Below are positions 259-38,253 of a stretch of DNA of 38,253 bases, piece by piece. The notes under the pieces were generated by a model. It saw only the letters and a program-made list of their open reading frames with translations. It was not told the origin of the DNA and searched no databases. The stretch's first letter is position 1; the number at the start of each line of letters is the position of its first letter. The stretch lies in IMG/VR virus record IMGVR_UViG_2778261538_000002, one strand, 5' to 3'. A program made the translations under genes and the position numbers. Source of the DNA: a virus (Duplodnaviria > Heunggongvirae > Uroviricota > Caudoviricetes).

Positions 259-287
259 TCGTCTGACAAGCCCTCGCATTGAGGGCT

Positions 288-665
288 TTATTGATTTTTT
301 CTGTGCTGTGGTTTAAACAAACTACTGATAAATAAGAAACACAATGCCCCCAGCGCACACCAGAACACCGCACTTAATAACCATGCCAGCTCTTGCCAGA
401 ATGAGCGCGTCGGTGAAAAAAACAGCCGCATAATGAGCATCGAGCAGGGTGCCGCCAGCATTGCGCCAAACAGAGGTTTCAGGACTTCTCTACGATGTGA
501 AAAGAAGCTGGCAACTGCACCAGGAAGAATGAAAAATAGCAAACCGATTTCAGGATGCCCGGCAGCCCGAAAAGCGCCTTTCATGTGCGTCGCCAGAAAA
601 AGACACACCACAATGAAGAGGACAAAACAGCAGATTGCCCCCGCCCAACGTTGTTTATGTTTCAC
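288..665 (-). CDS. ybjM: inner membrane protein YbjM
   Basis: 125-aa hydrophobic ORF convergent with grxA, as in the E. coli K-12 neighbourhood (window is reverse-complemented relative to K-12). Confidence 0.8.
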   Translation of the reverse strand: MKHKQRWAGAICCFVLFIVVCLFLATHMKGAFRAAGHPEIGLLFFILPGAVASFFSHRREVLKPLFGAMLAAPCSMLIMRLFFSPTRSFWQELAWLLSAVFWCALGALCFLFISSLFKPQHRKNQ

Positions 666-934
666 TCGTTCCTCCTGACACTGCGTCTATCGAACACATT
701 TTTCGCCAGTGTGGCGTTCAGTAAGATAAAGCCGCTTCGCATTCCATGCTAATATAGGCCAACGCAATTCATATAGCCGTTGATACCTAATGTGATTACA
801 CTAGTAAAATATATTGTTACTTTACTATCGTTTAGGTGCGCTGAATGAATCTGCGCCCTGAATTCTGGTAAAAAACATTATCGTAAATTACCATTTCTTT
901 CAACAGCTTACTAGTAAACAAGAAGTTAGCCTCC

Positions 935-2620: not shown

Positions 2621-2855
2621 AACTGAAGTTGCCCTGAAAATGAAATTTTTTTGCACAACCGCAGAACTTTTCCGCAGGGCATCAGTCTTAATTAGTGCCA
2701 CTGCTTTTCTTTGATGTCCCCATTTTGTGGAGCCCATCAACCCCGCCATTTCGGTTCAAGGTTGATGGGTTTTTTGTTGCCTTAAATTTATGCCGTTTAA
2801 AATCATGATGTTAGAAGCACTGTTTTTTAACGATGGCGACAAAATGGCGGCAGCG
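2621..2855. other. host-prophage junction; attachment site expected here
   Basis: interval between the ybjL stop and the first phage gene (ogr); exact core repeat cannot be defined because the other att lies outside the window. Confidence 0.4.
2733..2776 (+). terminator. rho-independent terminator downstream of ybjL
   Basis: perfect 10-bp inverted repeat cccatcaacc/ggttgatggg (2733-2742 and 2760-2769) followed by TTTTTT; loop is long (17 nt). Confidence 0.5.
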
Positions 2856-3074
2856 TCAAAGAGAGAGCGCCACCTGTCCTGATTTCATTGGATGCGGCTG
2901 AACCGGATTTGACTCTTTTGGCGTTGCAATCGAACGAACAAAAGTTTCATGGGTAACAAAAGTATGGCTGCAGTTAATGTTCTGGCACTGGTTGTAACGC
3001 TCTTTGGTCAATGAAGATACCTGAAAACTGCTGCGAGTATGGGCGGCACTTCCACACAGTGGGCAAATCATCAT
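2856..3074 (-). CDS. ogr: late gene transcriptional activator (Ogr/Delta zinc-finger family)
   Basis: about 72 aa from the tandem Met; CPLCG...CQNINC four-Cys zinc finger and KERY motif as in P2 Ogr; sits next to gene D as in P2. Confidence 0.8.
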   Translation of the reverse strand: MMICPLCGSAAHTRSSFQVSSLTKERYNQCQNINCSHTFVTHETFVRSIATPKESNPVQPHPMKSGQVALSL

Positions 3075-3164: not shown

Positions 3165-4265
3165 TCATTCCATTTCGAAATCATCAATCCTCACTTCAAG
3201 TTCCAGACTGGTTGTAAAACCGTTATCCGGGCTGACGGTATGTGTCAGAGTCGTAATGGTCCATTCCGCATCATCTATCGGCTGTTTAAAGCCACTGACT
3301 TTCACAGGCATTTCCGTATAAAGATCTGCCCGTCCTTCTGCCAGTTGCAGCGAGAATGACGCAACGCCGCGTTGCAGGCGTTCCCACTGCATTTTTGCCG
3401 CTCGTTCGGCGTTGCTCCGGTTGGCATAAGTGCGATTAAGTACCAGCACGTTTTCATCCGTCCCCACCAGGTAATCGCCCTGCTTCGCTTCCGGCTCTTT
3501 CTTCTGCTTCTTGGTCCTGCGCTTACGCTTCACCGTTGTGTTTTCTTTCTTCGCGGGTTCACGGGTATGCAACCAGCTGGCAATGACGCCCGTGTAAGCT
3601 CCGCGATCCGCCAGGGTAAAGCGGTGACTGTCGCCGTCCTTACGTGTGATAGTGATCACCGGCAGAGGTTTACCGCTGGCACTTTTACCCTGACCCTGCA
3701 GGATGAATAACAGATTGCCATTTTTCACCGACGCAATAGCACCGTACTGGCGCGCCAGCCGCATCAGAAAACTGCCGTCACTCTCATTAGTCTGGTCTAT
3801 ATGATCCACGGGTTTATCAGACAGGTCTTTACCCAGTGCCATCTTCAGTTTGTGACGCGCAGCTATTTCCTTCACCACTTCCCCGACAGTGGTCTTGTGC
3901 CACGATTTTTCACGACGGGTATTCAGCGTTTCCCTAAAATCAGCACTTCGCGCCCGGATAGTCAGGCGATCCGGTGCGCCAGTGTGTTCAATCTCGTCCA
4001 CCGTGAATGCCCCTTTCGGGAAAAGCGGCTGCCCTTTCCAGCCCAGCGCCAGCGTAATAACCGCACCACGACGCGGCAGCACGATTTTTCCGTCGGCATC
4101 ATCCAGTTCCAGATCAAGCTGGTCCGCTTCAAAGCCCCGGTTATCCGTCAGCGTCAGCCCCATCAGGCGGTTGTCCAGCACAGTAGTGATATCTCTGCCC
4201 TCAATACTGATGCTGAATGCGGGAGTTTTGTTGCCTTTGTTAAGCAGTTCAGAGCTGAAATTCAC
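3165..4265 (-). CDS. D: tail protein D (late control gene D)
   Basis: 366-aa ORF, last gene of the tail operon, recognised as P2 gpD-like; stop of U abuts its start. Confidence 0.88.
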   Translation of the reverse strand: MNFSSELLNKGNKTPAFSISIEGRDITTVLDNRLMGLTLTDNRGFEADQLDLELDDADGKIVLPRRGAVITLALGWKGQPLFPKGAFTVDEIEHTGAPDRLTIRARSADFRETLNTRREKSWHKTTVGEVVKEIAARHKLKMALGKDLSDKPVDHIDQTNESDGSFLMRLARQYGAIASVKNGNLLFILQGQGKSASGKPLPVITITRKDGDSHRFTLADRGAYTGVIASWLHTREPAKKENTTVKRKRRTKKQKKEPEAKQGDYLVGTDENVLVLNRTYANRSNAERAAKMQWERLQRGVASFSLQLAEGRADLYTEMPVKVSGFKQPIDDAEWTITTLTHTVSPDNGFTTSLELEVRIDDFEME

Positions 4266-4747
4266 GACAGCAGCCCTCCCACCGTTTTACTGATATAGCT
4301 TAAGGCAGACGTTGCCGTGTCCTGCAGATTATTCAGTTGCGCACTAAGATCACCGAACATATCGGACAGGGATTCATCCACCCGTTTGAGCGACAAAGTG
4401 AACTCAATCCGGCGCGGCATACCATCGCGGAAAAACTCCGTTTTAGTCTGATTCAGTCCCTCAATCACATACATGCCGTAAATCGTGCCGCTGCCTTCAA
4501 TCAGAGGCCATGCTTTCCCCTGTTCTGCCATCTGCTCCAGTGCCAGCAACGACAGCCTGCCACCTGTTATCTCCGGCATAAGAACACCGGAAAGTGTCAG
4601 CATGTCGTTGTCCGGTCCCAGAAACTGCGTGGACGGACGTCGGTTTACCCGGCTGTTAGCCACATGTCGCCAGCTGCGTTGATACTGCAGTTCCTGATAC
4701 GGAACGGTGCGCAGCATAAACACGTACAATCCCAGCACCATCATCAT
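4262..4747 (-). CDS. U: tail protein U
   Basis: 161-aa ORF; start overlaps the T stop (ATGA); P2 gpU-like. Confidence 0.85.
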   Translation of the reverse strand: MMMVLGLYVFMLRTVPYQELQYQRSWRHVANSRVNRRPSTQFLGPDNDMLTLSGVLMPEITGGRLSLLALEQMAEQGKAWPLIEGSGTIYGMYVIEGLNQTKTEFFRDGMPRRIEFTLSLKRVDESLSDMFGDLSAQLNNLQDTATSALSYISKTVGGLLS

Positions 4748-7700
4748 GCGTCGTATCCCCCCTGATCGCTGTAGTTACTCCTGGCTTTTGCCTTCAGCCT
4801 GCGTTCACGTTCATCAAGCTGGCGTGCCACCTCCCGCGCAATATCCTGCGCACTTTGTCCTGGCTGCGTCTGGATGATGATCTGCGTCGGTGCCTCAATC
4901 CGGTGAACGGGCGGCACAGTAGCTGCGCGACTCACCATCGCTTTGCCGCCTTTCGCGGGAAGCGCCAAAGGATGCAACGGTGGAAGCTCTGCTGGCGCGG
5001 CAGCAACGCCCATCATTCCGGCAACAACGGCAGCCAGTGCAGCTGTATTTCTCCGGCTGGTCACATTTGCCGGGCCGTTAACAATTTCCGGCCCGTTTTC
5101 ACCGACGATGCCAAACTGCCCGCGCGGGATATACCCGCCGCTGTCATACATCCCCGCAAAGCCATATCCCCATGACGGAAAACCACCCGATGGCATCATC
5201 ACTTTGCCGTCTGCATTCACCGTCGCAGGTTGCTGACGCGTCACGCTTTCCGGTAGTTTTGCCTTTGCGGCCTCTTTACTGACAATGCCGAGTTTCTCCA
5301 GCAACCAGGAAACGCCGGATTTCAGGGAGTCCAGCGGATGCATGACCATATTCAGCCCTTCCGCCAGTGCCTCCCCGAATCGTCGCCCCATTGCCGCTGC
5401 GCTCTGCAGTTCGGCAGAGGTCGACTTAACGGGCGTCAGCAGATCAGTAAACCAGCCCCACAGAGCCTGCACTTTGTCACCAATCCACTGAAACACGGGC
5501 TTAAGTGGTTCGAATGCGGCACTGATGGGACCTACCGCCGCTTTGAGTCCTTCCACCACGCCACCGAGAAATGCGGTGATGGGTTGCCAGTATTTCCAGA
5601 CAACCAGCGCCACGCCCGCCAGTGCAGTAACCACAAGACCTATCGGACTGAGCAGAGCACCTAACAGACCAGATATGGCATACAGGGCAACGCGCAGCAT
5701 CACCAGCGGACCGGATGCCAGCACTCGCAACACTGCACCTGCGGCAGTCAGTCCACCGCGCAGTGCCGCCAGTGGATTCATAAACATCAAGGCAACAGCA
5801 CGTAAACCGGATAAACCGGACCGCAACAGTGCAACAGGCGCAGCTGCCACAGTTTTCAGGGCATTTCCCGTCAGTGATGCCGTGCGGCGCAAAGACAACA
5901 GCGGCGCAGTAAGCAAACCCGCACTGCTCCCCGATGAAGCAAACCCGCGTCGCAGCACTGCCAGTGGCGCGCCTGCCAGCCTGGATAACGCGCTGCTGGT
6001 TCGTGTTACTGCATCCGTCACCGAAGGTAACGTCTTGATACCCAGCACAGAGAATCCCAGACGGATGACTGCCAGCGGCCCCAGCACTGCAGCCAACACC
6101 ACAGCCAGGGTGCCGAGGCCCACGGTAACCGCAGCCACAACAGCGGCTACTTTCATCAGTGTGCCCGTCAGTTCCGGGTTAGCTTCCACCCAGCGACGCG
6201 ACGCCCCCGTGACGCTTTTCACCATGTACAAAATATCCATCAGCGGCTGGCGCAGCGTTTCGCCCAGGCTGCTGAAGGTGTTCTGCGCTCCGGTTTTGAC
6301 CAGCAACCACTGCGCAGAAAGTGAATCCTTGTTAATGTCGGATTCTTTCTGCATGGAGCCGAGCGCATCATTGCCCGCTGTCAGTTTTAGCTGGCGCTGC
6401 AGTTCCGGCAGGTTGTTTGCCAGTTTCGCCGCGTCATCGCCAAACTCTTTACCAAACAACATGGTCATGGCAGACAGGCGCTTATCCTGCGGAAGCGCAT
6501 TCACCTTCTCCAGTACGCGCTGGATGGTTCCCATCGCATCCTTCGTCATCTGCTTTTCAATCACTTCAGGATTGAGTTTCAGCAGATTCATTCCTTCAAA
6601 GAAACTCTTGCTCTGCATGGTGGCAATGGACAATTCACGCACCATCGCGTTTGCTGCACTGGCTGCAACCTCCGGCGCAGCACCCAGTGTCAGGAAGGTT
6701 GAACCCAGCGCCGCCGCTTTACGATAATCCAGACGGTCAGCCACACCGCCCAGGCGTTGCATGACATCAATGATGTCTGCCCCTTTCGACATGGCGTTAT
6801 CATCCAGATAGTTCAGCGCGTCACCGAGCTGTTCAATATTGCGGGTAGGGATTTTGTAGAGCTGGGCGATTTTCCCCAGACTTTCTGACAGTTCATCCGC
6901 TGGCAGCTCAAAGGCTGTTGCCGCCTTTGCTGCCGTGCTGGCGAAGGCCAGCAGGTCACGTTTCTGGTCTTCCCAGCTGTCGTCAGGGTTTGCGACGTTC
7001 ATGCGCGCACCACCTTCAACCAGTGCAGCGAAATCCACCGCACCGTTTTCCATCGGCAACTGTTCGCTGGCAGCCTTGATGGCATCCTGCATTTCATAAA
7101 AACGTGCAGTGCGGTTGCCATTATCGTCACGCAGACCATTGACCTGCTTTGCCACACCTTTCATGGCATCTTCCATGCTGGTATAGCTTTTTACTGCCGC
7201 CATCACTGGTGCGCCCATTGCCAGCCCTGCAGCCGTGGTGGTGGCTCCTGCACCTGCAATACGATCACGCACCTCCAGTGAACGAGCATAACTGGCACGC
7301 GCCGCATTCATCCTGCGCTGAGCTTCCCCCAGTCGCTTCAGCCGCGCCTCCTGTTTCGACAATTCCTGGTTATAACGTGATGTTTCACGTGCTAAACGGG
7401 CAGTTGCTCCCGCATCATCTTTCGCAGAAATTCCCGCCCGGTACAGTTCTGCACGCACAAGCGCCGTTTGCTTCTGCAAATATTTTTGTTGTTCTTCCAG
7501 GCGTTGGACTGCCAGCGTTTGCCGACCTAAAGCCACAAGGTGCCGTTGTGATGGTTGTTCCATCGCTTCCAGCTCAGAACTAAGCAAATTTGCCTTCTGT
7601 CTGGCATAGTTCAGCCTGTCGCCTAACTTTTTGTTATCGGCCTGCAGCTTGCGAAATTTTTCCAGGCTGTTACCCGCCTGATTGAGTTGCTTTAATGCGT

Positions 7701-21445: not shown

Positions 21446-23212
21446 ATGAACACCACACTGACACCCGCAGATCTCGATCCCCGTCGGCAGGCCATGCTGC
21501 TGTACTTTCAGGGATACCGCGTAGCCCGCATTGCTGAAATGCTGGGCGAAAAAGTTGCAACCGTTCACAGCTGGAAGAAACGCGACAAGTGGGGTGACTA
21601 TGGGCCGCTGGATCAGATGCAGCTCACCACCGCCGCACGTTACTGCCAGCTCATTATGAAGGAGCACAAAGAAGGGAAAGATTTCAAAGAAATTGACCTG
21701 CTGGCGCGGCAGTCGGAGCGCCACGCGCGGATCGGCAAGTTTAACAATGGCGGCAACGAAGCCGACTTAAACCCTAACGTCGCCAACCGCAACAAAGGCC
21801 CGCGTCGTCAGCCGGAAAAGAACGTTTTCACCGATGAACAGATTGAAAAGCTGGAAGAAATCTTCCATTCCTCCATGTTCAACTACCAGCGCCACTGGTG
21901 GGAAGCCGGAAAAACCAACCGCATCCGCAACCTGTTGAAGTCACGCCAGATCGGCGCGACCTTCTATTTTGCCCGTGAAGCCCTGATTGACGCTCTGCTG
22001 ACTGGACGTAACCAGATTTTCCTTTCCGCAAGCAAGGCACAGGCCCACGTCTTTAAGCAGTACATCATCGACTTCGCCAAAGAAGTGGAGGTGGAGCTGA
22101 AAGGTGATCCGATGGTGCTTCCCAACGGGGCCACGCTTTACTTCCTCGGCACCAATGCCCGCACGGCCCAGAGTTATCACGGCAACCTGTATCTGGATGA
22201 ATATTTCTGGATACCGAAATTCCAGGAGCTGCGCAAAGTGGCTTCCGGTATGGCTATTCACAAGAAATGGCGACAGACCTATTTTTCCACGCCATCCAGT
22301 CTGACACACAGTGCTTATCCGTTCTGGTCCGGTGCGCTGTTCAACCGTGGGCGCAACAAAGCCGATAAGGTGGACATCGACCTGTCCCACAGCAATCTGG
22401 CCCCCGGCCTGCTGTGCGCAGACGGGCAATACCGCCAGATAGTCACCGTGGAAGATGCGGTGCGCGGCGGCTGTAACCTGTTCGACCTTGACCAGTTGCG
22501 CATGGAGTACAGCCCGGACGAATACCAGAACCTGCTGATGTGCGAGTTCGTGGACGATCTCGCGTCCGTGTTCCCGCTCAGCGAGCTGCAGGCGTGCATG
22601 GTGGACAGCTGGGAAGTCTGGACCGACTTTCATGCACTGGCCCTGCGCCCGTTTGGCTGGCGCGAAGTATGGATCGGCTATGACCCGGCAAAAGGCACGC
22701 AGAACGGCGACAGCGCCGGATGCGTGGTGGTGGCACCGCCAGCCGTACCGGGCGGCAAATTCCGCATTCTTGAGCGGCACCAGTGGCGCGGGATGGACTT
22801 CCGCGCCCAGGCTGACGCCATCAAAAAACTGACACAGCAGTACAACGTGACCTATATCGGCATTGACTCGACCGGCGTCGGTCACGGGGTTTATGAGAAC
22901 GTGAAAGCGTTCTTTCCTGCCGTCCGGGAGTTTGTCTACAACCCCAATGTTAAAAACGCCCTGGTACTCAAGGCCTACGACATTATCAGCCACCGCCGTC
23001 TGGAGTTTGACGCCGGACACACCGACATTGCGCAGTCATTTATGGCAATCCGTCGTGCCACCACCGCCAGTGGCAACCGCCCGACCTATGAAGCCAGCCG
23101 CAGCGAAGAAGCCAGTCACGCCGATCTGGCCTGGGCAACGATGCACGCACTGTTTAATGAACCGCTGCAGGGCGAGTCCGCCAATACCAGCAATATTGTG
23201 GAGATTTTTTGA
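21446..23212 (+). CDS. P: terminase large (ATPase) subunit
   Basis: 588-aa ORF; P2 gpP-like. Confidence 0.9.
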   Translation: MNTTLTPADLDPRRQAMLLYFQGYRVARIAEMLGEKVATVHSWKKRDKWGDYGPLDQMQLTTAARYCQLIMKEHKEGKDFKEIDLLARQSERHARIGKFNNGGNEADLNPNVANRNKGPRRQPEKNVFTDEQIEKLEEIFHSSMFNYQRHWWEAGKTNRIRNLLKSRQIGATFYFAREALIDALLTGRNQIFLSASKAQAHVFKQYIIDFAKEVEVELKGDPMVLPNGATLYFLGTNARTAQSYHGNLYLDEYFWIPKFQELRKVASGMAIHKKWRQTYFSTPSSLTHSAYPFWSGALFNRGRNKADKVDIDLSHSNLAPGLLCADGQYRQIVTVEDAVRGGCNLFDLDQLRMEYSPDEYQNLLMCEFVDDLASVFPLSELQACMVDSWEVWTDFHALALRPFGWREVWIGYDPAKGTQNGDSAGCVVVAPPAVPGGKFRILERHQWRGMDFRAQADAIKKLTQQYNVTYIGIDSTGVGHGVYENVKAFFPAVREFVYNPNVKNALVLKAYDIISHRRLEFDAGHTDIAQSFMAIRRATTASGNRPTYEASRSEEASHADLAWATMHALFNEPLQGESANTSNIVEIF

Positions 23213-24237
23213 TGGGAAAGAGTAAGAAAAACCGCGCTGCGGCGACGAACCAGATCCAGCATAAAAACCAAACTTCAGCCGAAGCATTCAGCTTCGGTGA
23301 TCCCGTTCCTGTTCTGGACCGCCGCGAATTACTGGACTATGTGGAATGCGTACAGATGGACCGCTGGTATGAGCCACCAGTGAGTTTCGACGGGCTGGCG
23401 CGAACCTTTCGCGCCGCCGTGCACCACAGCTCACCGATTGCCGTAAAGTGCAACATTCTGACCAGCACCTACATCCCTCATCCGCTGCTCAGCCAGCAGG
23501 CTTTTTCACGTTTTGTGCAGGACTATCTGGTATTTGGTAACGCCTACCTGGAGAAACGCACGAACCGCTTCGGTGAAGTGATCGCCCTTGAACCTGCCCT
23601 GGCGAAATACACCCGACGCGGGTTAGACCTAGATACCTACTGGTTTGTGCAATACGGTATGACAACCCAGCCGTATCAGTTCACGAAAGGCAGCATTTTT
23701 CATCTGATGGAACCGGACATCAACCAAGAGATCTACGGCCTGCCCGGTTATCTTTCTGCCATTCCGTCAGCCTTGCTCAACGAGTCCGCCACGCTGTTCC
23801 GCCGCAAGTATTACATTAACGGCAGTCATGCTGGCTTCATCATGTACATGACCGACGCCGCGCAGAACCAGGAAGATGTGAACAACCTCCGTAATGCGAT
23901 GAAAAGCGCCAAAGGTCCGGGCAACTTCCGCAACCTGTTTATGTACTCGCCGAACGGCAAAAAGGACGGACTTCAGATTATCCCGTTGTCAGAAGTCGCG
24001 GCGAAGGATGAATTTCTGAATATCAAGAACGTGAGCCGTGATGACATGATGGCTGCGCACCGCGTGCCGCCTCAGATGATGGGGATTATGCCGAATAATG
24101 TCGGGGGATTTGGGGATGTGGAGAAGGCCGCAAATGTATTTGTGCGTAATGAGTTAATTCCGCTTCAAAGAATTATACAAGGATTTAACGGATTTATTGG
24201 TGACGACATCATAAACTTCGAAAAATATAAATTATAG
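23209..24237 (+). CDS. Q: portal protein
   Basis: 342-aa ORF, ATGA-coupled to P; P2 gpQ-like. Confidence 0.9.
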   Translation: MMGKSKKNRAAATNQIQHKNQTSAEAFSFGDPVPVLDRRELLDYVECVQMDRWYEPPVSFDGLARTFRAAVHHSSPIAVKCNILTSTYIPHPLLSQQAFSRFVQDYLVFGNAYLEKRTNRFGEVIALEPALAKYTRRGLDLDTYWFVQYGMTTQPYQFTKGSIFHLMEPDINQEIYGLPGYLSAIPSALLNESATLFRRKYYINGSHAGFIMYMTDAAQNQEDVNNLRNAMKSAKGPGNFRNLFMYSPNGKKDGLQIIPLSEVAAKDEFLNIKNVSRDDMMAAHRVPPQMMGIMPNNVGGFGDVEKAANVFVRNELIPLQRIIQGFNGFIGDDIINFEKYKL

Positions 24238-24266: not shown

Positions 24267-25346
24267 CTAACATTGTTTACATAAATCAGAAAAACTACCA
24301 CCGAAATAATACAGTGCAGATTTATCATTTAGTTCTTTAAAAACTTCACACGCACGCTGGTGTATCTCAATAGCACTAGATTTATTTCGTCCAATAATAA
24401 CAGTCTCTTTTTCAGTACTATCGCCATCCAGAAAAGTCTTCAAAAGAAAATTAATAATAAAGTCTTCCTTTGGGAAAGAATAACCTATAAAGATCAACAG
24501 ATCTGCTTGTCTCAACTGGGTAGAGGATTTCACAAAAGCTGTCTTAAAGTATTTATCCCCATAGTCTTGTTCATTTGAAGGCAAGATAATATTTGGAACA
24601 ACTTTTGCGTTCAATAATGAATCATAATCTATTTTAAAACCATCCCTTGCAGCAACAACCTCAAATCCTCCATTAAGCTTATACAAACCTATACCTTTAG
24701 GCTGAGGACACACTAATATATTATTATGATGCACAGGAAAACCCCGATTAACTGAACGTTCAGGGAATGCATGATGTAGCACTTTATCAATAACTATATC
24801 GTAGTTTGTTGTGACTACATCCAGTGCTGAAGCTTCCTGTAAACTCTTAAAGAAAGAAATAATATTCCTTTTATTCTGCCCAAATTTTGCAGTTTGACTT
24901 AGCTTTAAATCATTTGCCGGTATTTTTTTTGCAAACTTATTTTTTACATATAGTTTTACTTGTGCCTCAAACAACTCAAGCGTATGCCTATCAAGATACG
25001 ACGGCAATAAACTTGGATATCGCTTATAAACATCCAATGCATATTTAAAACTCTTGAAAACATTAGCTTTGTCATCTAAACCTGCATTAGCATCCGCCCA
25101 TTTAAATTTAAGACTGTCGAACAAAGAAAAAAAACCATACTCATCAATATTTTCTAATGCTTCGTCTTCAGAGATGGAAAAGACTTCATTACTCAATGGG
25201 TATTTGTCATCCCAGGCTTTAGAAAATCCTGCTCCGAGAAAAACACATACTCTTCGCTCTCTTATTTTTGATTTCAATGTGGCGAAGGATGTAATTTCTA
25301 AATTATTAGGTGTCAAAATATCACCATCATAAGCAAAGCTAGTCAT
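24267..25346 (-). CDS. SIR2-like domain protein (candidate NADase effector)
   Basis: 359 aa; RVCVFLGAGFS Rossmann motif near the N-terminus, TTNYD motif, His cluster (VLHH, PVHH) and IFIGYSFP motif, which I recognise as the SIR2_2 (PF13289-type) pattern; AT-rich; starts 14 nt after the ATPase stop. Confidence 0.7.
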   Translation of the reverse strand: MTSFAYDGDILTPNNLEITSFATLKSKIRERRVCVFLGAGFSKAWDDKYPLSNEVFSISEDEALENIDEYGFFSLFDSLKFKWADANAGLDDKANVFKSFKYALDVYKRYPSLLPSYLDRHTLELFEAQVKLYVKNKFAKKIPANDLKLSQTAKFGQNKRNIISFFKSLQEASALDVVTTNYDIVIDKVLHHAFPERSVNRGFPVHHNNILVCPQPKGIGLYKLNGGFEVVAARDGFKIDYDSLLNAKVVPNIILPSNEQDYGDKYFKTAFVKSSTQLRQADLLIFIGYSFPKEDFIINFLLKTFLDGDSTEKETVIIGRNKSSAIEIHQRACEVFKELNDKSALYYFGGSFSDLCKQC

Positions 25347-25359
25347 GTTTTTCTCACGC

Positions 25360-26589
25360 TTAGTTTTTTATATCAAGAAAAGCTGGAACTAATCCAAATT
25401 CGCCACGTAAATATTTGGCAGACACTTTAGCATCTTTCCTTACAGAAAATACCGTAGCATTAGTTATTATCGACGCTTTAGATGAATCCTTGACTATAAT
25501 ATTAAGCTCATCTCTTCTAAACACATCATCTAATAAAGGAATATTATGTGTAGACATAATAAACTGCACACCATTTTTACGGCAGGTTTTATCAAATATT
25601 TTTTTGATTAGTGCACTTGCCAAAGAATAGTGAATAGATGAATCTATTTCATCCACATAAAGTGTAAAATCATATTCACTAGCCCAAATCAATATTGCTA
25701 AAAATGTTAAAACATTTAGTGTGCCTTGGGAAAAAAATTCATCCCTACGGTCAGGGCCTATTCTAGTAAAATCACCATCATCATTTTTTATGAGATAAAC
25801 AAATTTATACTCATTATCTTCGCCAAATCTTACAAATTCAACTTTATCTATATGCAGCGGCGACTGAATAACCATTTCATTATAGGTATTTAAAATTCTT
25901 TGACCACTCTCATTTAATTTTTCATTTCCTTCCTCACCTGATAACTGGCGCTTAAGTTGTCCTTCAACAAATTTAAGACTTGGATTTTTGAATTTTTCAG
26001 AGTAATAAGGCAATTGTTTTAATGCCCAGCGTTGGGTTTCAACAAGAGCATCAATTTCTAAAGATTTTGCAAAAGTTACAACAGCTCCACTTTCTCTTAA
26101 GACAGGATTAATCAACGACTCGTATTTTTTTAAGTCGGGCTTTTTGAAAACCAACCCATTTTCATTGCGAATAAAAATACATTGTTCCCTTGCACTTTTT
26201 CTTATCGGTCTAATGTATAAATACTCATCTACAATAACTTCATTTAAAACTGACACACCATAACGGACGAAGTTTTTTTGCTCTTCATCAATCAGTATCG
26301 CTTCATAGGAAGTAGGTTTGTTACGACATTCCTTATTTAGAAGGAAAGGCATATGCAATTTGTGTAATGTGTCACTATGAATTGAATTTGCAAATTCAGT
26401 AATAGCATTTATTAATTGTGTTTTACCAACACCATTTCCGCCTATTAATGCGGCAAATCTGTTTACTCTTAAACCATTCGCTAATGTCACGATATGTTCA
26501 GGATGCTCATCCCCAATTGAGGAAGCAAAACTAAGAACCTGTCTTTCGCGAAAGCTCTTGTAATTTTCTAAACTGAATGCAACTAGCAT
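25360..26589 (-). CDS. ABC/AAA_15-21-type ATPase (candidate defense sensor)
   Basis: 409 aa; Walker A GGNGVGKT, Walker B LYVDEID, H-loop-like FIMSTHN; GAGGA RBS; AT-rich; no TOPRIM or coiled-coil evident. Confidence 0.75.
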   Translation of the reverse strand: MLVAFSLENYKSFRERQVLSFASSIGDEHPEHIVTLANGLRVNRFAALIGGNGVGKTQLINAITEFANSIHSDTLHKLHMPFLLNKECRNKPTSYEAILIDEEQKNFVRYGVSVLNEVIVDEYLYIRPIRKSAREQCIFIRNENGLVFKKPDLKKYESLINPVLRESGAVVTFAKSLEIDALVETQRWALKQLPYYSEKFKNPSLKFVEGQLKRQLSGEEGNEKLNESGQRILNTYNEMVIQSPLHIDKVEFVRFGEDNEYKFVYLIKNDDGDFTRIGPDRRDEFFSQGTLNVLTFLAILIWASEYDFTLYVDEIDSSIHYSLASALIKKIFDKTCRKNGVQFIMSTHNIPLLDDVFRRDELNIIVKDSSKASIITNATVFSVRKDAKVSAKYLRGEFGLVPAFLDIKN

Positions 26590-27037: not shown

Positions 27038-27424
27038 ATGGTTACGGTTGATGAATTAAAGATGAAATATCCGGACGCGAATGCCTGGCAAGTGGGCGAC
27101 AGCCCTGAACTGGCTAACGAGCTTGCAGCACTTATCAAAAAAGGGATTAAAACGGCCTCCTGCGGCTCTTATGCCTCTTACCAGAAGGAAGAGTTTGCCC
27201 CAAGGATTGGGAGCTATAACATCATCCTTAACGGCCAGGATGTACCGGTATGCGTGACCCGGCTAGTGTCGATGCGACTGGTGCGTTTTTGTGATGTTAC
27301 TGCCGAGTTCGCTCGCAAGGAAGGTGAAGGCGATTTGAGTCTTGAATATTGGCAGAGAGAGCATCAACGATTTTTTACATGTGAAGGTTACTTTTCTGAC
27401 GATATGGAGCTGATTATGGAATAG
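27038..27424 (+). CDS. ASCH-domain protein
   Basis: 128 aa; ASCH/PUA-like pattern (LIKKGIKTASCG ... FARKEGEGDLSLEYWQREHQRFF); AAAGGA RBS. Confidence 0.7.
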   Translation: MVTVDELKMKYPDANAWQVGDSPELANELAALIKKGIKTASCGSYASYQKEEFAPRIGSYNIILNGQDVPVCVTRLVSMRLVRFCDVTAEFARKEGEGDLSLEYWQREHQRFFTCEGYFSDDMELIME

Positions 27425-33632: not shown

Positions 33633-34583
33633 ATGTCAACTCAAAAATTCACATTTCGCCATATCAAAGAGGATGCGAAAGCCATTGTTATGCAGAATCG
33701 TGGGGGACAGAAAGTCATTGAGCGAATACTCAAAGCTTATGGCTTCAAGTCACGCCAAGCGTTCTGTAACCATCTTGGTATTTCACAAAGTACGATGGCC
33801 AATAGATATGCTCGCGATACATTTCCTGCTGATTGGGTTGTTATATGCTCAATGGAAACAGGAGCATCTTTGGAATGGCTGGCGTTTGGTTCTGATGCGG
33901 CAGAAGAAATACTCTCAACTGCTCCAAATGGATACAACGAAGACGACCAGCGAGATGACGTTGAAAGTGACAATCATATACCTTCCTTTAATTTTCATAA
34001 TGATCATCAAGTCGATTTCAATCAGGGAGGAAAAGCGGCAATAGAACGGATAGTTAAGGCTTATGGCTTTAAAACTCGTCAAGCACTGGCAGATCATCTT
34101 GGTATATCAAAAAGTACATTAGCTACACGCTATATGCGTGACTCATTCCCTGCTGATTGGATAATACAGTGTGCCCTTGAAACTGGATTCTCATTGAAAT
34201 GGCTTGTTGATGGGCAAGGACTTAATAAAAGTTCACAAAATGAAAACATTGTGTGCATAAACAAGTACGTGCTTGCCGATGGTGCACTCGAAATGAAGGG
34301 TAACTACATTTTTGATAAGTCCTTTGTACCTAAGTCGATTAAAGATCCAATGTTAATATTTGATGGCAGCAGGATATACTTAGCTGAGGGGAACTTTGAC
34401 GAAATTAGCGATGGATTGTGGTTTGTTGAAATTGAAGGAAAAATCAGTGTTCGCGAGGTAATAAGAATACCGGTAGGTAAAGTAAGAGTAACGAGCTCAA
34501 ACTCAAATATTACTTTTGACTGTGCAATTAATGAACTCAAACCGGTTGCAAAATGCCAGTTCAACCTAATGACTATAATATAA
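33633..34583 (+). CDS. cI: CI-type immunity repressor with duplicated N-terminal HTH domain
   Basis: 316 aa; two tandem copies of a 186-CI-like HTH module (ERILKAYGFKSRQAF...HLGISQSTMANRY..FPADW and ERIVKAYGFKTRQAL...HLGISKSTLATRY..FPADW) plus a CI-like C-terminal domain. Confidence 0.8.
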   Translation: MSTQKFTFRHIKEDAKAIVMQNRGGQKVIERILKAYGFKSRQAFCNHLGISQSTMANRYARDTFPADWVVICSMETGASLEWLAFGSDAAEEILSTAPNGYNEDDQRDDVESDNHIPSFNFHNDHQVDFNQGGKAAIERIVKAYGFKTRQALADHLGISKSTLATRYMRDSFPADWIIQCALETGFSLKWLVDGQGLNKSSQNENIVCINKYVLADGALEMKGNYIFDKSFVPKSIKDPMLIFDGSRIYLAEGNFDEISDGLWFVEIEGKISVREVIRIPVGKVRVTSSNSNITFDCAINELKPVAKCQFNLMTII

Positions 34584-34614: not shown

Positions 34615-35733
34615 ATGTCTAGAAGTTTTGCTATTTGGGGATGCCGAAACTACGCTAAAGGCCCAGGAGAGGATTATAATGAGACTCAAGCAGATTTTAT
34701 AAACGAACTACACATCAACTTTTGGAATATCACATCCCAAAAATGCTATCATCTAGATTTTGGCATATCATTTTCTCGCCCCCAAGATAATGAAATTTCA
34801 GAACAGGGTGCAATCTGTTTATTTTTACCGTTTGTAAAAGAAAAAGATGACTTCATTGATTTAAGTACGAACCTAGATAGCAGCAAAGAACTGATCACCG
34901 CGGTTTTTAATGAATACGTCATAAATAAAGACTCAATAAACGAGAAACACTTATTATTAAATTTAACACGAAAAGGTAAACTAATAGTTAATACAAAACT
35001 TGATTTTCAAGGGGGGGCATTCGACAAAAGAATCACATTGAGAAAGAGGAATGATGGGACATATGTATTTTTCCATCTGCAGGATTGTTTGTCTAATTGC
35101 AATAATTGCAATTACTACATCAGATTCAGAATTAACCTAAATGAATCTGATGTTGAAGCAATTGTTAAAACATTCTATCCAAAAGATTTATTCTTAAAAA
35201 GCAATATTGAACGTTCTGATATTATAGATTTCAGAATTAACGAACAAAGAAATTTGCCAAACGAAGTCGCAACCACACTGGCCAGCGCCTCTTGCACTCC
35301 AAGCAAATATCATTTTTTCGTTATACGAGATATGGTTGACGAAGCATCGGCATCAGGTTCAAGCTATCAAGGTTGTCGTATTCTTGAATCAGAGACATGG
35401 AAAAAATACTTTTCAAATAATGTCAATTTTGGTAAGAACGATCCTATGATTTACCACTGGAAAGCTAAAAAGGATGATGGCGCACGGCTAGGTGACTTCT
35501 CTGTAGTAGTGAAGTTCAAGACTACTAAATCAAAAATTAGTAAAATATTTACATATATGTTCTATGCTGCAGCCATAGCATACATAATGAAATTTATTCC
35601 AACAGATGGTGTGCATAAAGACATTTATCTAATTTGCACCATTGCATTTATTGTAGCTTACATTGCCGCTCACTTTATTAAACCACAAAAATTATCCAAC
35701 TTTATTGCACTGGTGAAAAAATGGAAAAATTAA
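34615..35733 (+). CDS. hypothetical protein with C-terminal transmembrane helices (cargo gene 1)
   Basis: 372 aa; large soluble N-terminal region, two hydrophobic helices near the C-terminus; AT-rich; 32 nt after the cI stop. Confidence 0.7.
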   Translation: MSRSFAIWGCRNYAKGPGEDYNETQADFINELHINFWNITSQKCYHLDFGISFSRPQDNEISEQGAICLFLPFVKEKDDFIDLSTNLDSSKELITAVFNEYVINKDSINEKHLLLNLTRKGKLIVNTKLDFQGGAFDKRITLRKRNDGTYVFFHLQDCLSNCNNCNYYIRFRINLNESDVEAIVKTFYPKDLFLKSNIERSDIIDFRINEQRNLPNEVATTLASASCTPSKYHFFVIRDMVDEASASGSSYQGCRILESETWKKYFSNNVNFGKNDPMIYHWKAKKDDGARLGDFSVVVKFKTTKSKISKIFTYMFYAAAIAYIMKFIPTDGVHKDIYLICTIAFIVAYIAAHFIKPQKLSNFIALVKKWKN

Positions 35734-36800
35734 AACACATTCAGTTTAATGAAGTTAATTTTAACGATGTTTTTTTTGACTCCTTAAAAAAAGACTATCA
35801 ACATGGATTTATCGATTGGTTCAATAAAAAATGTAATTCTATCGAAGAAAAAGCTTATGTCTTATATAATGATGACAACACAATTGATGGTTTTTTATAC
35901 TTGAAAATTGAGCGTGGTATTATTGACGACGTAATACCACCTTTGACTCGTGCTAAACATCTAAAAATAGGCACATTTAAATTCAACCCGAAGGGGACTC
36001 TACGAGGACAAAGATTCCTCAAAAAGATTTTTGATCATGCACTAAAAGAAAAAGTAGATGATATCTATGTGACTGTTTTTGAAAAACATGATTATTTAAT
36101 TAGACTATTCAAAATTTATGGTTTTATTCATGTTGCTACAAAACAAACTGCTAATGGTAGTGAACAAGTCTTAGTAAGAGAGATGAATAAAAATCATCTT
36201 ACAGGGGATATTTTGTCTGATTATCCGTATATAAATAATAGCAACGATGAAAACAAATATCTGTTATCCATATATCCTGAATTCCATACAAAACTGTTTC
36301 CTGATTCGATACTCACCACAGAGTCCCCTGATATAATCACGGATGTATCTCATGCGAATAGCATTAGAAAAATATATATATGCAGAATGCATGACGTAAA
36401 AAAAATAAAAAGACATGACATTTTAGTTATTTACAGAACAAGTGACAAAGAAAACAGAGCGTATTATCGCTCTGTCGCAACGTCATTATGTGTAGTTGAA
36501 GATATTAGACATATTGATTCTTTTTATAGTGAAAAAGAATTCATACAGTATTGTACACGATACAGTGTATTCTCTGAAAATGAATTAAAAAAATCCTATC
36601 AAACAAAAAGATACCCTTACATTATTAGTTTTACATATAATCTAGCTTTACCTAAAAGAATAAACCGTGCTAAACTAATCAAAGAAATTGGTTTAAATCC
36701 TAAAAACCGTTGGGGTGTTGTTAAATTAACCGATGAGCAATTTGACGATATAATTAAACTTGGTGCTGTAGATGAAAGTATTATTGTCAATAAAACCTGA
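35721..36800 (+). CDS. hypothetical protein, N-terminal GNAT-like fold fused to an unknown C-terminal domain (cargo gene 2)
   Basis: 359 aa; N-terminal 150 aa have GNAT-like topology (…KIGTFKF…RGQRFLKKIF…YLIRLFKIYGF…); overlaps neighbouring genes at both ends. Confidence 0.65.
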   Translation: MEKLKHIQFNEVNFNDVFFDSLKKDYQHGFIDWFNKKCNSIEEKAYVLYNDDNTIDGFLYLKIERGIIDDVIPPLTRAKHLKIGTFKFNPKGTLRGQRFLKKIFDHALKEKVDDIYVTVFEKHDYLIRLFKIYGFIHVATKQTANGSEQVLVREMNKNHLTGDILSDYPYINNSNDENKYLLSIYPEFHTKLFPDSILTTESPDIITDVSHANSIRKIYICRMHDVKKIKRHDILVIYRTSDKENRAYYRSVATSLCVVEDIRHIDSFYSEKEFIQYCTRYSVFSENELKKSYQTKRYPYIISFTYNLALPKRINRAKLIKEIGLNPKNRWGVVKLTDEQFDDIIKLGAVDESIIVNKT

Positions 36801-37143
36801 ATTTGTTGAAAAAATCCTTAATGGGACGAAGAAGTTTGAATTCAGGAAAGGTATTTTTAAAAAACCGGATGTAAAATCTGTGGTTATTTATTCAACAATG
36901 CCTGTCGGTAAAGTTGTTGCTGAATTTGACATTGCAGATGTTATAGAAGATAAGCCGAGTATTGTATGGGAAAAAACAAGCCAATACGCAGGTATCAGTA
37001 AACAATTTTTTGACTCTTATTTTCATAGCAAAGAAAAAGCCTTTGCTATAGAAATTGGTAATCTAAAAATCTATGACCAACCACTTCATCTAAGTTCATT
37101 AGGTGATAACATAACGGCCCCGCAATCATATCGGTACTTATGA
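36772..37143 (+). CDS. ASCH-domain protein (cargo gene 3)
   Basis: 123 aa; MKVLLSIKPEFVEKILNGTKKFEFRK is a typical ASCH N-terminus. Confidence 0.7.
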   Translation: MKVLLSIKPEFVEKILNGTKKFEFRKGIFKKPDVKSVVIYSTMPVGKVVAEFDIADVIEDKPSIVWEKTSQYAGISKQFFDSYFHSKEKAFAIEIGNLKIYDQPLHLSSLGDNITAPQSYRYL

Positions 37144-37221
37144 TGTATGTAACCTTAAGCATCATACATTGACACTGGTTATATATACAGTAAAAATGCT
37201 CTCCACTGGAGGGCATTTTTT

Positions 37222-38253
37222 ATGGCAGTACGAAAACTCACCACAGGAAAATGGCTTTGCGAATGTTACCCCGCCGGACGTAGTGGGCGTCGTGTGCGTA
37301 AACAATTCGCCACCAAAGGCGAAGCTCTTGCTTTTGAGCGTCACACGATGGAAGAAACTGAATCAAAGCCCTGGCTGGGCGAATCAGTGGATCGTCGAAC
37401 CCTGAAAGACGTGGTTGAGCTATGGTTCAAACTACATGGTAAATCTCTGACTGCTGGGCAGCATGTCTATGACAAATTGCTGCTGATGGTTGACGCTCTG
37501 GGCAATCCCCTTGCAACCGATCTCACATCTAAAATGTTTGCCCATTATCGAGATAAACGACTGACAGGTGAGATCTACTTCAGCGAGAAATGGAAGAAAG
37601 GAGCCAGCCCGGTCACCATTAACCTGGAGCAAAGCTATCTAAGTAGTGTTTTTAGCGAACTATCCCGCCTGGGCGAATGGACGTATCCGAACCCACTGGA
37701 GAACATGCGAAAATTCACCATCGCAGAAAAAGAGATGGCATGGCTTACCCATGAGCAGATTGTTGAACTGCTGGCTGATTGCAAACGTCAGGACCCAATT
37801 CTGGCTCTGGTAGTCAAAATATGCTTAAGCACAGGCGCACGCTGGCGAGAAGCCGTAAATCTTACCCGCTCACAGGTGACCAAATACCGAATTACCTTTG
37901 TAAGAACGAAGGGGAAGAAAAACAGAAGCATCCCTATCAGTAAAGAGCTTTACGAAGAGATCATGGCGCTTGATGGGTTCAATTTCTTCACAGACTGCTA
38001 TTTTCAATTTTTATCCGTGATGGAAAAAACGTCTATCGTGCTCCCTCGCGGTCAACTGACACACGTTCTGCGCCATACGTTTGCGGCGCATTTCATGATG
38101 TCGGGTGGAAATATCCTTGCTTTGCAAAAAATCCTCGGACATCACGACATAAAAATGACCATGCGTTACGCACATCTGGCACCGGATCACCTGGAAACTG
38201 CATTACGGTTTAATCCGCTGGCAACACTACCAACATCAACAGCAACTGTTTGA
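37222..38253 (+). CDS. int: tyrosine integrase
   Basis: 343 aa; C-terminal catalytic region HVLRHTFA...LGHHDIKMTMRYAHL; stop at the window end. Confidence 0.92.
   Translation: MAVRKLTTGKWLCECYPAGRSGRRVRKQFATKGEALAFERHTMEETESKPWLGESVDRRTLKDVVELWFKLHGKSLTAGQHVYDKLLLMVDALGNPLATDLTSKMFAHYRDKRLTGEIYFSEKWKKGASPVTINLEQSYLSSVFSELSRLGEWTYPNPLENMRKFTIAEKEMAWLTHEQIVELLADCKRQDPILALVVKICLSTGARWREAVNLTRSQVTKYRITFVRTKGKKNRSIPISKELYEEIMALDGFNFFTDCYFQFLSVMEKTSIVLPRGQLTHVLRHTFAAHFMMSGGNILALQKILGHHDIKMTMRYAHLAPDHLETALRFNPLATLPTSTATV

What the first reader, a model, noticed from the sequence alone, without database searches (positions are those of the whole stretch)
34615..37143. Three-gene AT-rich cargo cluster between the repressor and integrase genes (membrane protein, GNAT-like fusion, ASCH protein)
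In 186 and P2 the repressor and integrase genes are adjacent; here three extra same-strand genes, tightly packed and overlapping each other by 13 and 29 nt, lie between them, so they should be co-transcribed with cI in the lysogen. That is the classic position and expression mode of lysogenic-conversion and superinfection-exclusion genes. The products are a 372-aa protein with C-terminal transmembrane helices, a 359-aa protein with a GNAT-like acetyltransferase fold fused to an unknown domain, and an ASCH (PUA-like) protein. As inference only: ASCH domains bind or process modified nucleic acid (an ASCH enzyme deacetylates N4-acetylcytidine) and GNAT enzymes acetylate, so this could be a modification-sensing module with a membrane effector.
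Basis: partly seen in the sequence, partly recalled or inferred. Interest (0 to 1): 0.85.

Follow-up and report, generated by a model that had tools for sequence, protein, structure and literature searches.

The report
Prophage GNAT–ASCH cargo with membrane partner
A Klebsiella 186-like prophage carries, inside its repressor–integrase operon, an untested candidate anti-phage module (an acetyltransferase fused to a nucleic-acid-reader domain, plus an ASCH protein), together with a membrane-anchored protein that proves to be a widespread, unannotated partner of such modules.

Summary
Three tightly packed, AT-rich + strand genes (34615-35733, 35721-36800, 36772-37143; overlaps of 13 and 29 nt) lie between a 186-type cI and int, which directly abut in phage 186.

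Genes 2 and 3 are not new. They match PADLOC candidate system PDC-M11 (A: E 7e-139; B: E 2e-49). This is the "GNAT-EVE + ASCH" operon predicted by Bell et al. 2020 to be a toxin-antitoxin or defence module common in prophages. No published test was found.

Gene 1 is the new part. It has a cytoplasmic all-beta domain, a C-terminal transmembrane hairpin and no match in any family library. Its family has about 1,170 cluster representatives. In 31 of 31 metagenome loci with enough flanking DNA it sits beside an M11B-type ASCH and a GNAT, in several gene orders.

The most likely function is a lysogen-expressed acetylation writer/eraser abortive-infection module with a membrane partner. This mechanism is inferred, not shown.

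The parts
33633..34583 (+). Context: 186-type CI immunity repressor (316 aa) with two tandem N-terminal HTH domains plus a CI C-terminal domain. It is the first gene of the lysogenic operon.
   Evidence: Pfam Phage_CI_repr E 5e-60 (2 stretches) and Phage_CI_C E 2e-25. 186 record annotation of the pL/pE lysogenic operon.
34615..35733 (+). Gene 1 ('g1', 372 aa): an unannotated family. It has a cytoplasmic all-beta domain of about 300 aa, a TM hairpin (aa 305-326 and 335-354) and a basic C-terminal helix. It is a conserved facultative partner of GNAT + ASCH modules.
35721..36800 (+). Gene 2 (359 aa) = PDC-M11A, the 'GNAT-EVE' fusion. It has an N-terminal GNAT acetyltransferase (about aa 1-155) and a C-terminal PUA-like domain of ZmASCH type (about aa 175-357).
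36772..37143 (+). Gene 3 (123 aa) = PDC-M11B, a stand-alone ASCH protein of the ZmASCH family with an intact GxKxxExR octapeptide (K20, E23, R25).
   Evidence: PADLOC PDC-M11B E 2e-49. Pfam ASCH above cut-off. phmmer to PDB 5gus/5guq E 3e-9. The ZmASCH sequence itself hits PDC-M11B at E 5e-27. K20, E23, R25, Y40 and S119 are 100% conserved in 53 family members.
37192..37220 (+). Strong hairpin (13-bp stem, 3-nt loop) flanked by an A-run and a T-run, ending 1 nt before the int ATG. It is a possible terminator or attenuator that separates the cargo genes from int.
   Evidence: RNA fold -19.2 kcal/mol, z = -4.97, 0 of 200 shuffles as stable. Sequence. The simple terminator scan missed it.
37222..38253 (+). 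Context: P2/186-type tyrosine integrase (343 aa).
   Evidence: Pfam Int_N E 2e-32 and Phage_integrase E 7e-22.

Best explanation
The cluster is horizontally acquired cargo inserted in the cI-int lysogenic operon of a Klebsiella 186/P2-like prophage, so it is probably expressed in lysogens.

Genes 2 and 3 form the core. Gene 2 is a GNAT acetyltransferase fused to a non-catalytic PUA-like nucleic-acid-binding domain. Gene 3 is a translationally coupled ASCH protein that keeps the catalytic Lys/Glu/Arg of ASCH N4-acetylcytidine amidohydrolases and belongs to the family of ZmASCH, an ssRNA-binding RNase and ac4C eraser.

The most likely mechanism is a toxin-antitoxin-like 'writer/eraser' abortive-infection module, analogous in logic to DarT/DarG:
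1. The PUA-like domain targets the GNAT to an RNA substrate (tRNA or aminoacyl-tRNA) or another nucleic acid.
2. Acetylation of that substrate arrests translation.
3. The ASCH protein reverses or blocks this until a superinfecting phage tips the balance.

Gene 1 is a membrane-tethered cytoplasmic beta-domain protein with an Arg/His-rich conserved site. It is a dedicated optional third component, either a membrane effector or a membrane-proximal sensor or scaffold.

Shown here: gene structure, domain identities, family memberships, residue conservation, genomic linkage and prophage position. Inferred: expression from pL, acetylation substrate, ASCH as antidote, anti-phage outcome and the role of gene 1.
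For: Position:
- cI and int abut in 186 within the pL/pE lysogenic operon.
- Here there is a 31-nt cI-g1 gap, overlapping genes and no + strand terminator until the pre-int hairpin.
- The site is variable cargo on a conserved backbone.
- The same A-B pair follows the cI-like repressor in lambdoid ST131 and O157 prophages.

Identity:
- PDC-M11A and PDC-M11B HMMs match. PDC systems were derived by 'guilt-by-embedding' in BREX, DISARM and type I RM loci.
- Bell et al. describe (PIN)-GNAT-EVE + ASCH (+AAA_17) operons as putative TA/defence modules, with the GNAT-EVE form common in beta- and gamma-proteobacterial prophages.
- A->B adjacency holds in 48 of 48 species-level loci.

Chemistry:
- The GNAT fold is present with a Gly-rich beta4-alpha3 loop and the motif-B Tyr.
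- B keeps K20, E23 and R25 in 100% of members, plus Y40 and S119, which correspond to the ZmASCH residues whose mutation impairs binding or cleavage.
- ASCH proteins including ZmASCH remove ac4C from tRNA, with Lys and Glu essential.

Gene 1:
- It was never seen without a GNAT and an M11B-type ASCH: 6 of 6 look-ups, 7 of 7 E. coli genomes and 31 of 31 well-flanked metagenome loci.
- It occurs in permuted orders (g1-A-B, A-B-g1, A-g1-B, ASCH-g1-GNAT), which argues for functional coupling rather than hitch-hiking.
Against: - No experiment on any member was found. PDCs are explicitly 'untested', and Bell et al. state that none of the modules has been characterised.
- Bell et al. suggest that prophage GNAT-EVE could instead be a counter-defence or host-toxic factor.
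- The reported ZmASCH activities (RNase versus deacetylase) are not reconciled, so gene 3 could be an effector rather than an antidote.
- Most PDC-M11 loci lack gene 1 (39 of 48; 305 of 312 E. coli genomes), so it is not required for the core function.
- The gene 1 fold gives no functional clue.
- Profile-profile similarity between the C-terminal domain of A and B is weak (HHalign probability 10%).
- Promoter-like sites are not enriched (21 found against 18.1 expected), and expression in lysogens was not measured.
Confidence: 0.4

Rival explanations
1. This is a prophage addiction or stabilisation toxin-antitoxin module. The GNAT fusion is a toxin and the ASCH protein its antidote, and the pair only stabilises the prophage or mobile element, with no role against other phages.
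For: A and B are translationally coupled and overlapping in 48 of 48 loci. The pair is found on prophages, a conjugative element (L004) and chromosomal islands. Bell et al. classify it as a putative TA system.
Against: The PDC-M11 models derive from genes embedded in BREX, DISARM and type I RM loci. The PIN-containing form associates with RM and CRISPR loci. The position directly after the immunity repressor in two unrelated prophage types mirrors known exclusion genes. TA and abortive-infection functions are not mutually exclusive.
Confidence: 0.2
2. This is a counter-defence or host-manipulation factor. The prophage GNAT-PUA protein acetylates host or phage nucleic acid, or aminoacyl-tRNA, to protect the phage from host restriction or to reprogramme the host. 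The ASCH protein regulates it. This is the suggestion Bell et al. made for the GNAT-EVE form.
For: Bell et al. propose this for prophage GNAT-EVE proteins that lack the PIN domain. The window's gene 2 is the PIN-less short form.
Against: The genes sit in the lysogenic operon, not the lytic one, so they would be expressed when the phage is dormant. Identical short-form pairs also occur outside prophages (L010, L014-L032). No anti-restriction evidence exists.
Confidence: 0.12
3. Gene 1 is an independent superinfection-exclusion or lysogenic-conversion membrane protein that merely shares the hotspot with PDC-M11.
For: The cI-int gap is a cargo hotspot with swappable genes. E. coli WP5-type prophages carry an unrelated 260-aa protein in front of A-B, and phage 4LV2017 carries an unrelated 349-aa gene alone. 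Most A-B loci lack gene 1.
Against: Homologues of gene 1 at 23-34% identity, from Bacteroidota, Pseudomonas and diverse metagenomes, always have an M11B-type ASCH and a GNAT within one or two genes. They appear in at least four gene orders, including between A and B (L045), and in non-prophage contexts. In M11A-less loci a small GNAT immediately follows gene 1.
Confidence: 0.05
4. This is an RNA-modification housekeeping pair: an ac4C-type writer and eraser that tunes tRNA or rRNA for phage or host translation, with no conflict function.
For: ASCH proteins act as tRNA ac4C erasers. M11B-like domains are fused to ribosomal protein L22 in NCBIfam PRK12279 (E 7e-13).
Against: The distribution is patchy and on mobile elements (312 of 5,426 E. 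coli genomes). The composition is AT-rich and foreign. The pair associates with HNH, PIN, AAA_17 and defence loci. Known bacterial ac4C writers (TmcA) have a different architecture (background knowledge).
Confidence: 0.06

Closest known systems
PADLOC candidate system PDC-M11 (Payne et al. 2024 preprint, 10.1101/2024.01.29.577857)
   Same: Genes 2 and 3 match the PDC-M11A and PDC-M11B HMMs at E 7e-139 and 2e-49, and are adjacent on the same strand.
   Different: PDC-M11 is defined as two genes and has not been tested. The window adds a third gene that no PADLOC model covers and that proves to be a conserved partner.
(PIN)-GNAT-EVE + ASCH (+AAA_17) operons (Bell et al. 2020, BMC Biol, PMC7641849; earlier Iyer et al. 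2013, cited there)
   Same: The architecture is the same: GNAT fused to a C-terminal PUA-superfamily domain, followed by an ASCH gene. The PIN-less form is typical of gamma-proteobacterial prophages. AAA_17 genes were seen in 10 of 48 related loci here.
   Different: Pfam EVE was not detected in gene 2, and the best structural match of its C-terminal domain is ZmASCH. Searches of the paper's main text for 'transmembrane' (0 occurrences) and 'membrane protein' (reference list only) found no mention of a membrane-anchored partner. No AAA_17 or PIN is present in the window.
ZmASCH (ZMO0922; PDB 5GUQ/5GUS) and ASCH ac4C amidohydrolases (YqfB, TthASCH)
   Same: Gene 3 aligns to ZmASCH at E 3e-9, and ZmASCH itself hits the PDC-M11B models at E 5e-27. 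The K/E/R octapeptide, Y40 (= Y47) and S119 (= S128) are conserved.
   Different: No biochemistry exists for gene 3 itself. Identity to ZmASCH is low. The genomic context of ZmASCH was not examined here.
DarT/DarG and GNAT toxin TA systems (TacT, AtaT, KacT)
   Same: The logic is a nucleic-acid- or tRNA-modifying toxin encoded just upstream of, and overlapping, an enzyme that could erase the modification. GNAT toxins acetylate aminoacyl-tRNA (background knowledge, cited).
   Different: There is no sequence relationship to DarTG. Gene 2 is twice the size of TacT-type toxins, carries a PUA-like domain and has no RHH/HTH antitoxin. Toxicity is untested.
Lambda rexAB, and the P2-related cI-int defence hotspot of Vibrio K139-like phages (Rousset et al. 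2022, PMC9122126)
   Same: Cargo sits immediately downstream of the immunity repressor and upstream of int, and is expressed in lysogens. Rousset et al. report a cI-int hotspot carrying defence systems.
   Different: The phage lineage differs (Klebsiella 186-like). There is no homology to RexAB. This specific system was not among those Rousset et al. tested: neither 'ASCH' nor 'acetyltransferase' occurs in that paper.
Ligand-gated membrane effectors of abortive infection (e.g. CBASS Cap15: beta-barrel + 2 TM)
   Same: Gene 1 combines a soluble beta-rich domain with a one- or two-helix membrane anchor.
   Different: The domain order is reversed, the beta domain is much larger (about 300 aa) and no structural or sequence match was found. 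The resemblance is recalled from memory only.

Membership tests
PADLOC PDC-M11 | A protein matching a PDC-M11A HMM | tested here: met
   Gene 2 matches PDLC04419 at E 6.7e-139 over 3-357 of 359 aa.
PADLOC PDC-M11 | An adjacent protein matching a PDC-M11B HMM | tested here: met
   Gene 3 matches PDLC04425 at E 1.7e-49 over its full length. It overlaps gene 2 by 29 nt on the same strand.
PADLOC PDC-M11 | Demonstrated anti-phage activity | not testable with these tools
   The PDCs are described as 145 untested candidates. A literature search for 'PDC-M11' returned only a genome survey.
(PIN)-GNAT-EVE / ASCH operon (Bell et al. 2020) | GNAT acetyltransferase domain | tested here: met
(PIN)-GNAT-EVE / ASCH operon (Bell et al. 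2020) | C-terminal EVE (PUA-superfamily) domain fused to the GNAT | tested here: inconclusive
(PIN)-GNAT-EVE / ASCH operon (Bell et al. 2020) | Separate ASCH-domain gene in the operon | tested here: met
   Gene 3 scores 28.9 bits against Pfam ASCH (cut-off 21.2). Adjacency holds in 48 of 48 related loci.
(PIN)-GNAT-EVE / ASCH operon (Bell et al. 2020) | N-terminal PIN domain (long form only) and AAA_17 gene (facultative) | tested here: not met
   The window has the short form without the roughly 150-aa N-terminal extension and has no AAA_17 gene. Both features are optional in the published description. Pfam did not detect PIN in the long-form N-terminus of L004.
ASCH N4-acetylcytidine amidohydrolases / tRNA ac4C erasers | ASCH beta-barrel with the GxKxxExR ('GKER') octapeptide; Lys and Glu essential | tested here: met
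   Gene 3 carries G18-T-K20-K-F-E23-F-R25. K20, E23 and R25 are invariant in 53 family members. The requirement comes from the mutagenesis reported in the preprint.
ASCH N4-acetylcytidine amidohydrolases / tRNA ac4C erasers | Deacetylase activity on ac4C or tRNA | not testable with these tools
   Reported for ZmASCH and 18 other ASCH proteins, but not for gene 3.
GNAT toxins of type II TA systems (TacT/AtaT/KacT) | Single-domain GNAT of about 170 aa paired with an RHH/HTH DNA-binding antitoxin | tested here: not met
   Gene 2 is a 359-aa two-domain fusion and its partner is an ASCH protein without a DNA-binding HTH. No PADLOC or NCBIfam TA model was hit.
Experimentally named defence systems in PADLOC-DB v2 (for gene 1) | HMM match to any component | tested here: not met
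   Gene 1 and its Bacteroidota homologue hit 0 PADLOC families. Gene 1 also hit 0 Pfam, PHROGs and NCBIfam families.

The most novel reading that the evidence does not exclude
GNAT, ASCH, the AAA_17 nucleoside/nucleotide-kinase-like protein and gene 1 together form a small-molecule immune signalling pathway. On infection the GNAT makes an acetylated nucleoside or nucleotide. The ASCH amidohydrolase degrades it to keep the system off. The Arg/His-rich cytoplasmic beta domain of gene 1 is its receptor and drives a membrane-disrupting TM hairpin. This would be a new second-messenger chemistry and a new effector family. The evidence neither supports it specifically nor excludes it. ASCH enzymes do act on free N4-acylcytosine nucleosides (YqfB, PMC6972931 abstract). 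Gene 1 is always linked to a GNAT and an ASCH, even when the PUA-fused form is absent.
Probability: 0.07. Interest if true: 0.9.

Novelty: new variant of a known kind. Interest (0 to 1): 0.55.

Why it matters
PDC-M11 (GNAT-EVE + ASCH) is widespread. It occurs in about 6% of complete E. coli genomes, including ST131 and O157:H7, and in many phyla. Nobody has tested it.

This work gives it a concrete, falsifiable mechanism: an acetylation writer with a catalytically intact ASCH eraser, and a crystal structure already available for the eraser family.

It also adds a large, completely unannotated protein family (about 1,170 cluster representatives) as a dedicated membrane-anchored partner. This family defines three-gene and four-gene subtypes that current defence-finding tools miss.

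The work further documents the cI-int junction of Klebsiella and enterobacterial 186-like prophages as a cargo hotspot expressed with the repressor.

Tried and rejected
- The word-indexed homologue search for gene 1 found only 28 clusters.
A 14-sequence alignment worked. The viral-contig scan returned only close relatives.
- Iyer et al. 2013 could not be read, so its content is cited only through Bell et al.
- Pfam did not confirm a PIN domain in the long-form N-terminus.
- The idea that gene 1 is independent cargo was rejected on the linkage data.
- The E. coli WP5-type 260-aa protein and the 4LV2017 349-aa protein that occupy the same slot are unrelated to gene 1.
- The simple terminator scan missed the pre-int hairpin. 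It was found by eye and confirmed by folding.
Full report
**1.

One search lists three + strand ORFs at 34615-35733 (372 aa, 'g1'), 35721-36800 (359 aa) and 36772-37143 (123 aa). They overlap by 13 and 29 nt.

They are flanked by a 316-aa 186-type CI repressor (33633-34583) and a P2/186-type integrase (37222-38253). GC content drops to 0.28-0.35 over the cluster, against about 0.45-0.55 in the flanks.

The annotated phage 186 record shows cI and int abutting. Both lie in a 'lysogenic operon' driven by pL and pE. The three genes are therefore an insertion into that operon.

The window is a Klebsiella 186/P2-like prophage. Its structural genes are 95% identical to Klebsiella phage 4LV2017. That phage carries a single unrelated 349-aa gene in the same cI-int gap. 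E. coli 186-like prophages at the rcdA/ybjJ site carry either a g1 homologue (62% identity) plus the same downstream pair, or an unrelated 260-aa protein plus that pair. The junction is thus a cargo hotspot.

No + strand terminator was found between the cI stop and the ASCH stop. A strong hairpin with a T-run (37192-37220; -19.2 kcal/mol, z = -5) sits immediately before the int ATG.

**2. Genes 2 and 3 are a known, untested candidate system**

Gene 2 matches PADLOC PDC-M11A (E 7e-139) and gene 3 matches PDC-M11B (E 2e-49). PDC systems are 145 untested candidates, predicted because they are embedded in BREX, DISARM and type I RM loci.

The same operon type was described by Bell et al. 2020 as (PIN)-GNAT-EVE plus an ASCH protein and often an AAA_17 ATPase. 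They interpreted it as a putative toxin-antitoxin or defence module. They noted that the PIN-less GNAT-EVE form is common in beta- and gamma-proteobacterial prophages, and that no component had been characterised. Searches for 'PDC-M11' and 'GNAT-EVE' found no functional study.

A scan of one genome per species returned 48 loci from Proteobacteria, Bacteroidota, Treponema and Bacilli/Mycoplasma-like MAGs. A is followed by B in all 48, and the two usually overlap. In complete E. coli genomes the pair occurs in 312 of 5,426. In ST131 it lies directly after the cI-like XRE repressor of a lambdoid prophage, which is a rexAB-like position.

**3. Domain anatomy**

The family keeps a Gly-rich beta4-alpha3 loop (G92, G96) and the motif-B Y133-G134-F135. 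This is consistent with an active acetyltransferase.

The C-terminal domain keeps Y238 in a 'VIYRT' motif, which is equivalent to ZmASCH Y47. It has K217 and Y219 in place of the catalytic K/E/R octapeptide. It looks like a binding domain rather than a catalytic one.

Gene 3 is a true ZmASCH-family member. phmmer gives E 3e-9 to 5gus/5guq, and the ZmASCH sequence itself hits PDC-M11B at E 5e-27. ZmASCH is a Mg-dependent ssRNA-specific RNase in which Y47F, K53E and S128A impair binding or cleavage. A 2026 preprint reports that 19 ASCH proteins, including ZmASCH, remove N4-acetylcytidine from tRNA, with the octapeptide Lys and Glu essential. In 53 M11B sequences K20, E23, R25, Y40 (= Y47) and S119 (= S128) are invariant.

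**4. Gene 1 is the new element**

Gene 1 has no hit in Pfam, PADLOC, PHROGs or NCBIfam.

Its AF2 model (pLDDT 80.6) shows an all-beta domain of about 300 residues, two TM helices (305-326 and 335-354) and a basic C-terminal helix. There is no signal peptide, and basic residues flank the hairpin on the N- and C-terminal sides. The beta domain should therefore be cytoplasmic (read from the sequence).

An exhaustive profile search finds 1,167 cluster representatives at E<=1e-3, and 356 at E<=1e-30. Fifteen positions are invariant across 50 members that are mostly 21-36% identical to the window protein. They are rich in Arg, His, Asn, Asp and Glu (H33, N35, D48, R170, R172, R207, N209, R255, E258 and others). 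This suggests a ligand- or nucleic-acid-binding site.

Linkage to GNAT and ASCH genes is consistent across every test:
- All six homologue look-ups showed M11A and M11B nearby. These contexts included a Bacteroidota conjugative-element locus and a non-prophage island.
- All 7 E. coli genomes with g1 also carry M11A-B.
- In an unbiased metagenome scan seeded with g1, all 31 loci with at least 2 kb on both sides carry an M11B-type ASCH and a GNAT. The GNAT is M11A in 24 loci and a small stand-alone GNAT in 8 (one locus has both).
- Gene orders include A-B-g1 (18 loci), g1-A-B (17), ASCH-g1-GNAT (10) and AAA_17-ASCH-g1-GNAT (7) in the metagenome set, and A-g1-B in L045.

Conversely, only 9 of 48 species-level M11A loci have g1. 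It is therefore an optional but dedicated third component. Other recurrent accessories are AAA_17 kinase-like proteins (10 of 48) and, in three g1-containing loci, an HNH_5 nuclease.

**5. Mechanism**

Shown:
- The cargo lies inside the lysogenic operon.
- Gene 2 is a GNAT fused to a PUA-like binding domain.
- The overlapping ASCH partner has an intact catalytic motif.
- The membrane-tethered partner is tightly linked to these genes.

Inferred:
- The GNAT is targeted by its PUA-like domain to RNA (tRNA or aminoacyl-tRNA) or another nucleic acid, and acts as a toxin.
- The ASCH protein erases or blocks the modification, following a DarT/DarG-like logic.
- Infection unbalances the pair and aborts the infection.
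- g1 acts as a membrane effector, or as a sensor or scaffold.

Rivals are a pure addiction TA module, the counter-defence role proposed by Bell et al. for prophage GNAT-EVE, an independent exclusion gene (disfavoured by the linkage data) and housekeeping RNA modification.

A more radical reading is an acetyl-nucleotide signalling pathway with g1 as receptor and effector. The evidence does not exclude it, but nothing supports it specifically.

**6. Verdict**

The gene 2/3 core is already catalogued and untested. What is new here:
- the identification of the second PUA-like domain in gene 2;
- the placement of gene 3 in the biochemically studied ZmASCH family;
- the recognition of g1 as a large, unannotated, dedicated partner family that defines new three- and four-gene architectures.

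Noticed in passing
window 24267-26589 (- strand), beside the portal gene at 23209-24237: A second AT-rich island (GC 0.32-0.38) encodes a SIR2-like protein (359 aa; Pfam SIR2_2 E 1e-8; PADLOC SIR2 models) and an ABC-type ATPase (409 aa; PADLOC AbiLi E 2e-51; AriA-like; Pfam AAA_21). It looks like a second defence-cargo hotspot of this prophage.
   Followed up: partly
window 27038-27424 (+): A second, unrelated ASCH-domain protein (128 aa; Pfam ASCH E 1.5e-19) has no detectable sequence similarity to gene 3 (BLASTP E 1.9). Its octapeptide region reads G-I-K-T-A-S-C-G. Its function is unknown, and its relation to the cI-int cargo was not explored.
   Followed up: partly
window 33633-34583 (+): The CI repressor is 316 aa, with two tandem Phage_CI_repr HTH domains (about aa 20-93 and 135-197) before the CI C-terminal domain. 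In phage 186, cI spans only 579 nt (about 192 aa). Similarly long CI genes occur in E. coli WP5-type prophages and in phage 4LV2017.
   Followed up: partly
window 37192-37220 (+): A 13-bp-stem hairpin with flanking A- and T-runs ends 1 nt before the int start codon (-19.2 kcal/mol, z -5). It is a possible terminator, attenuator or translational occluder of int. A promoter-like TTGACA-17-AAAAAT site at 37169-37197 overlaps it.
   Followed up: partly
window 1-2900: The left end is host DNA. A 561-aa Asp-Al_Ex/TrkA_C permease lies at 935-2620. Similarity to phage 4LV2017 starts only at about 2665, so a prophage boundary lies near 2650-2900.
   Followed up: no
L008 1-6514 and L009: This rearranged locus carries both architectures. 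CI, a 527-aa protein and M11A lie on one strand. They converge on M11B-type ASCH, an AAA_17 kinase-like protein, a g1 homologue and a small 155-aa GNAT on the other strand.
   Followed up: partly
L033 4704-5534, L040 4703-5542, L045 3080-3898: A protein of about 275 aa forms one similarity cluster across three Bacteroidota-type loci that also contain g1. The L033 and L040 members have an N-terminal HNH_5 endonuclease domain; the L045 member was not scanned. It may be a further optional effector.
   Followed up: partly
L063 (E. coli ST131, NZ_OX637959.1) 4000-6189: In lambdoid prophages of ST131, O157:H7 and other E. coli, the M11A-M11B pair (66% nt identity to the window) sits immediately downstream of the cI-like XRE repressor and upstream of kil/gam/bet/exo. 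This is a rexAB-like position, with no g1.
   Followed up: partly
window 36772-37143 (gene 3): Gene 3 matches the C-terminal 'unknown domain' of NCBIfam PRK12279, a '50S ribosomal protein L22/unknown domain fusion protein' (E 7e-13). This hints that the ASCH subfamily can be physically coupled to the ribosome.
   Followed up: no
L002 4223-5005 (E. coli WP5-W18-ESBL-11): The slot that g1 occupies in the window holds an unrelated 260-aa protein in the commoner E. coli 186-like prophage variant. It has weak PADLOC hits to DUF3644, HEC-08 and NsnC (E 2e-5 to 7e-3). It may be an alternative accessory.
   Followed up: partly
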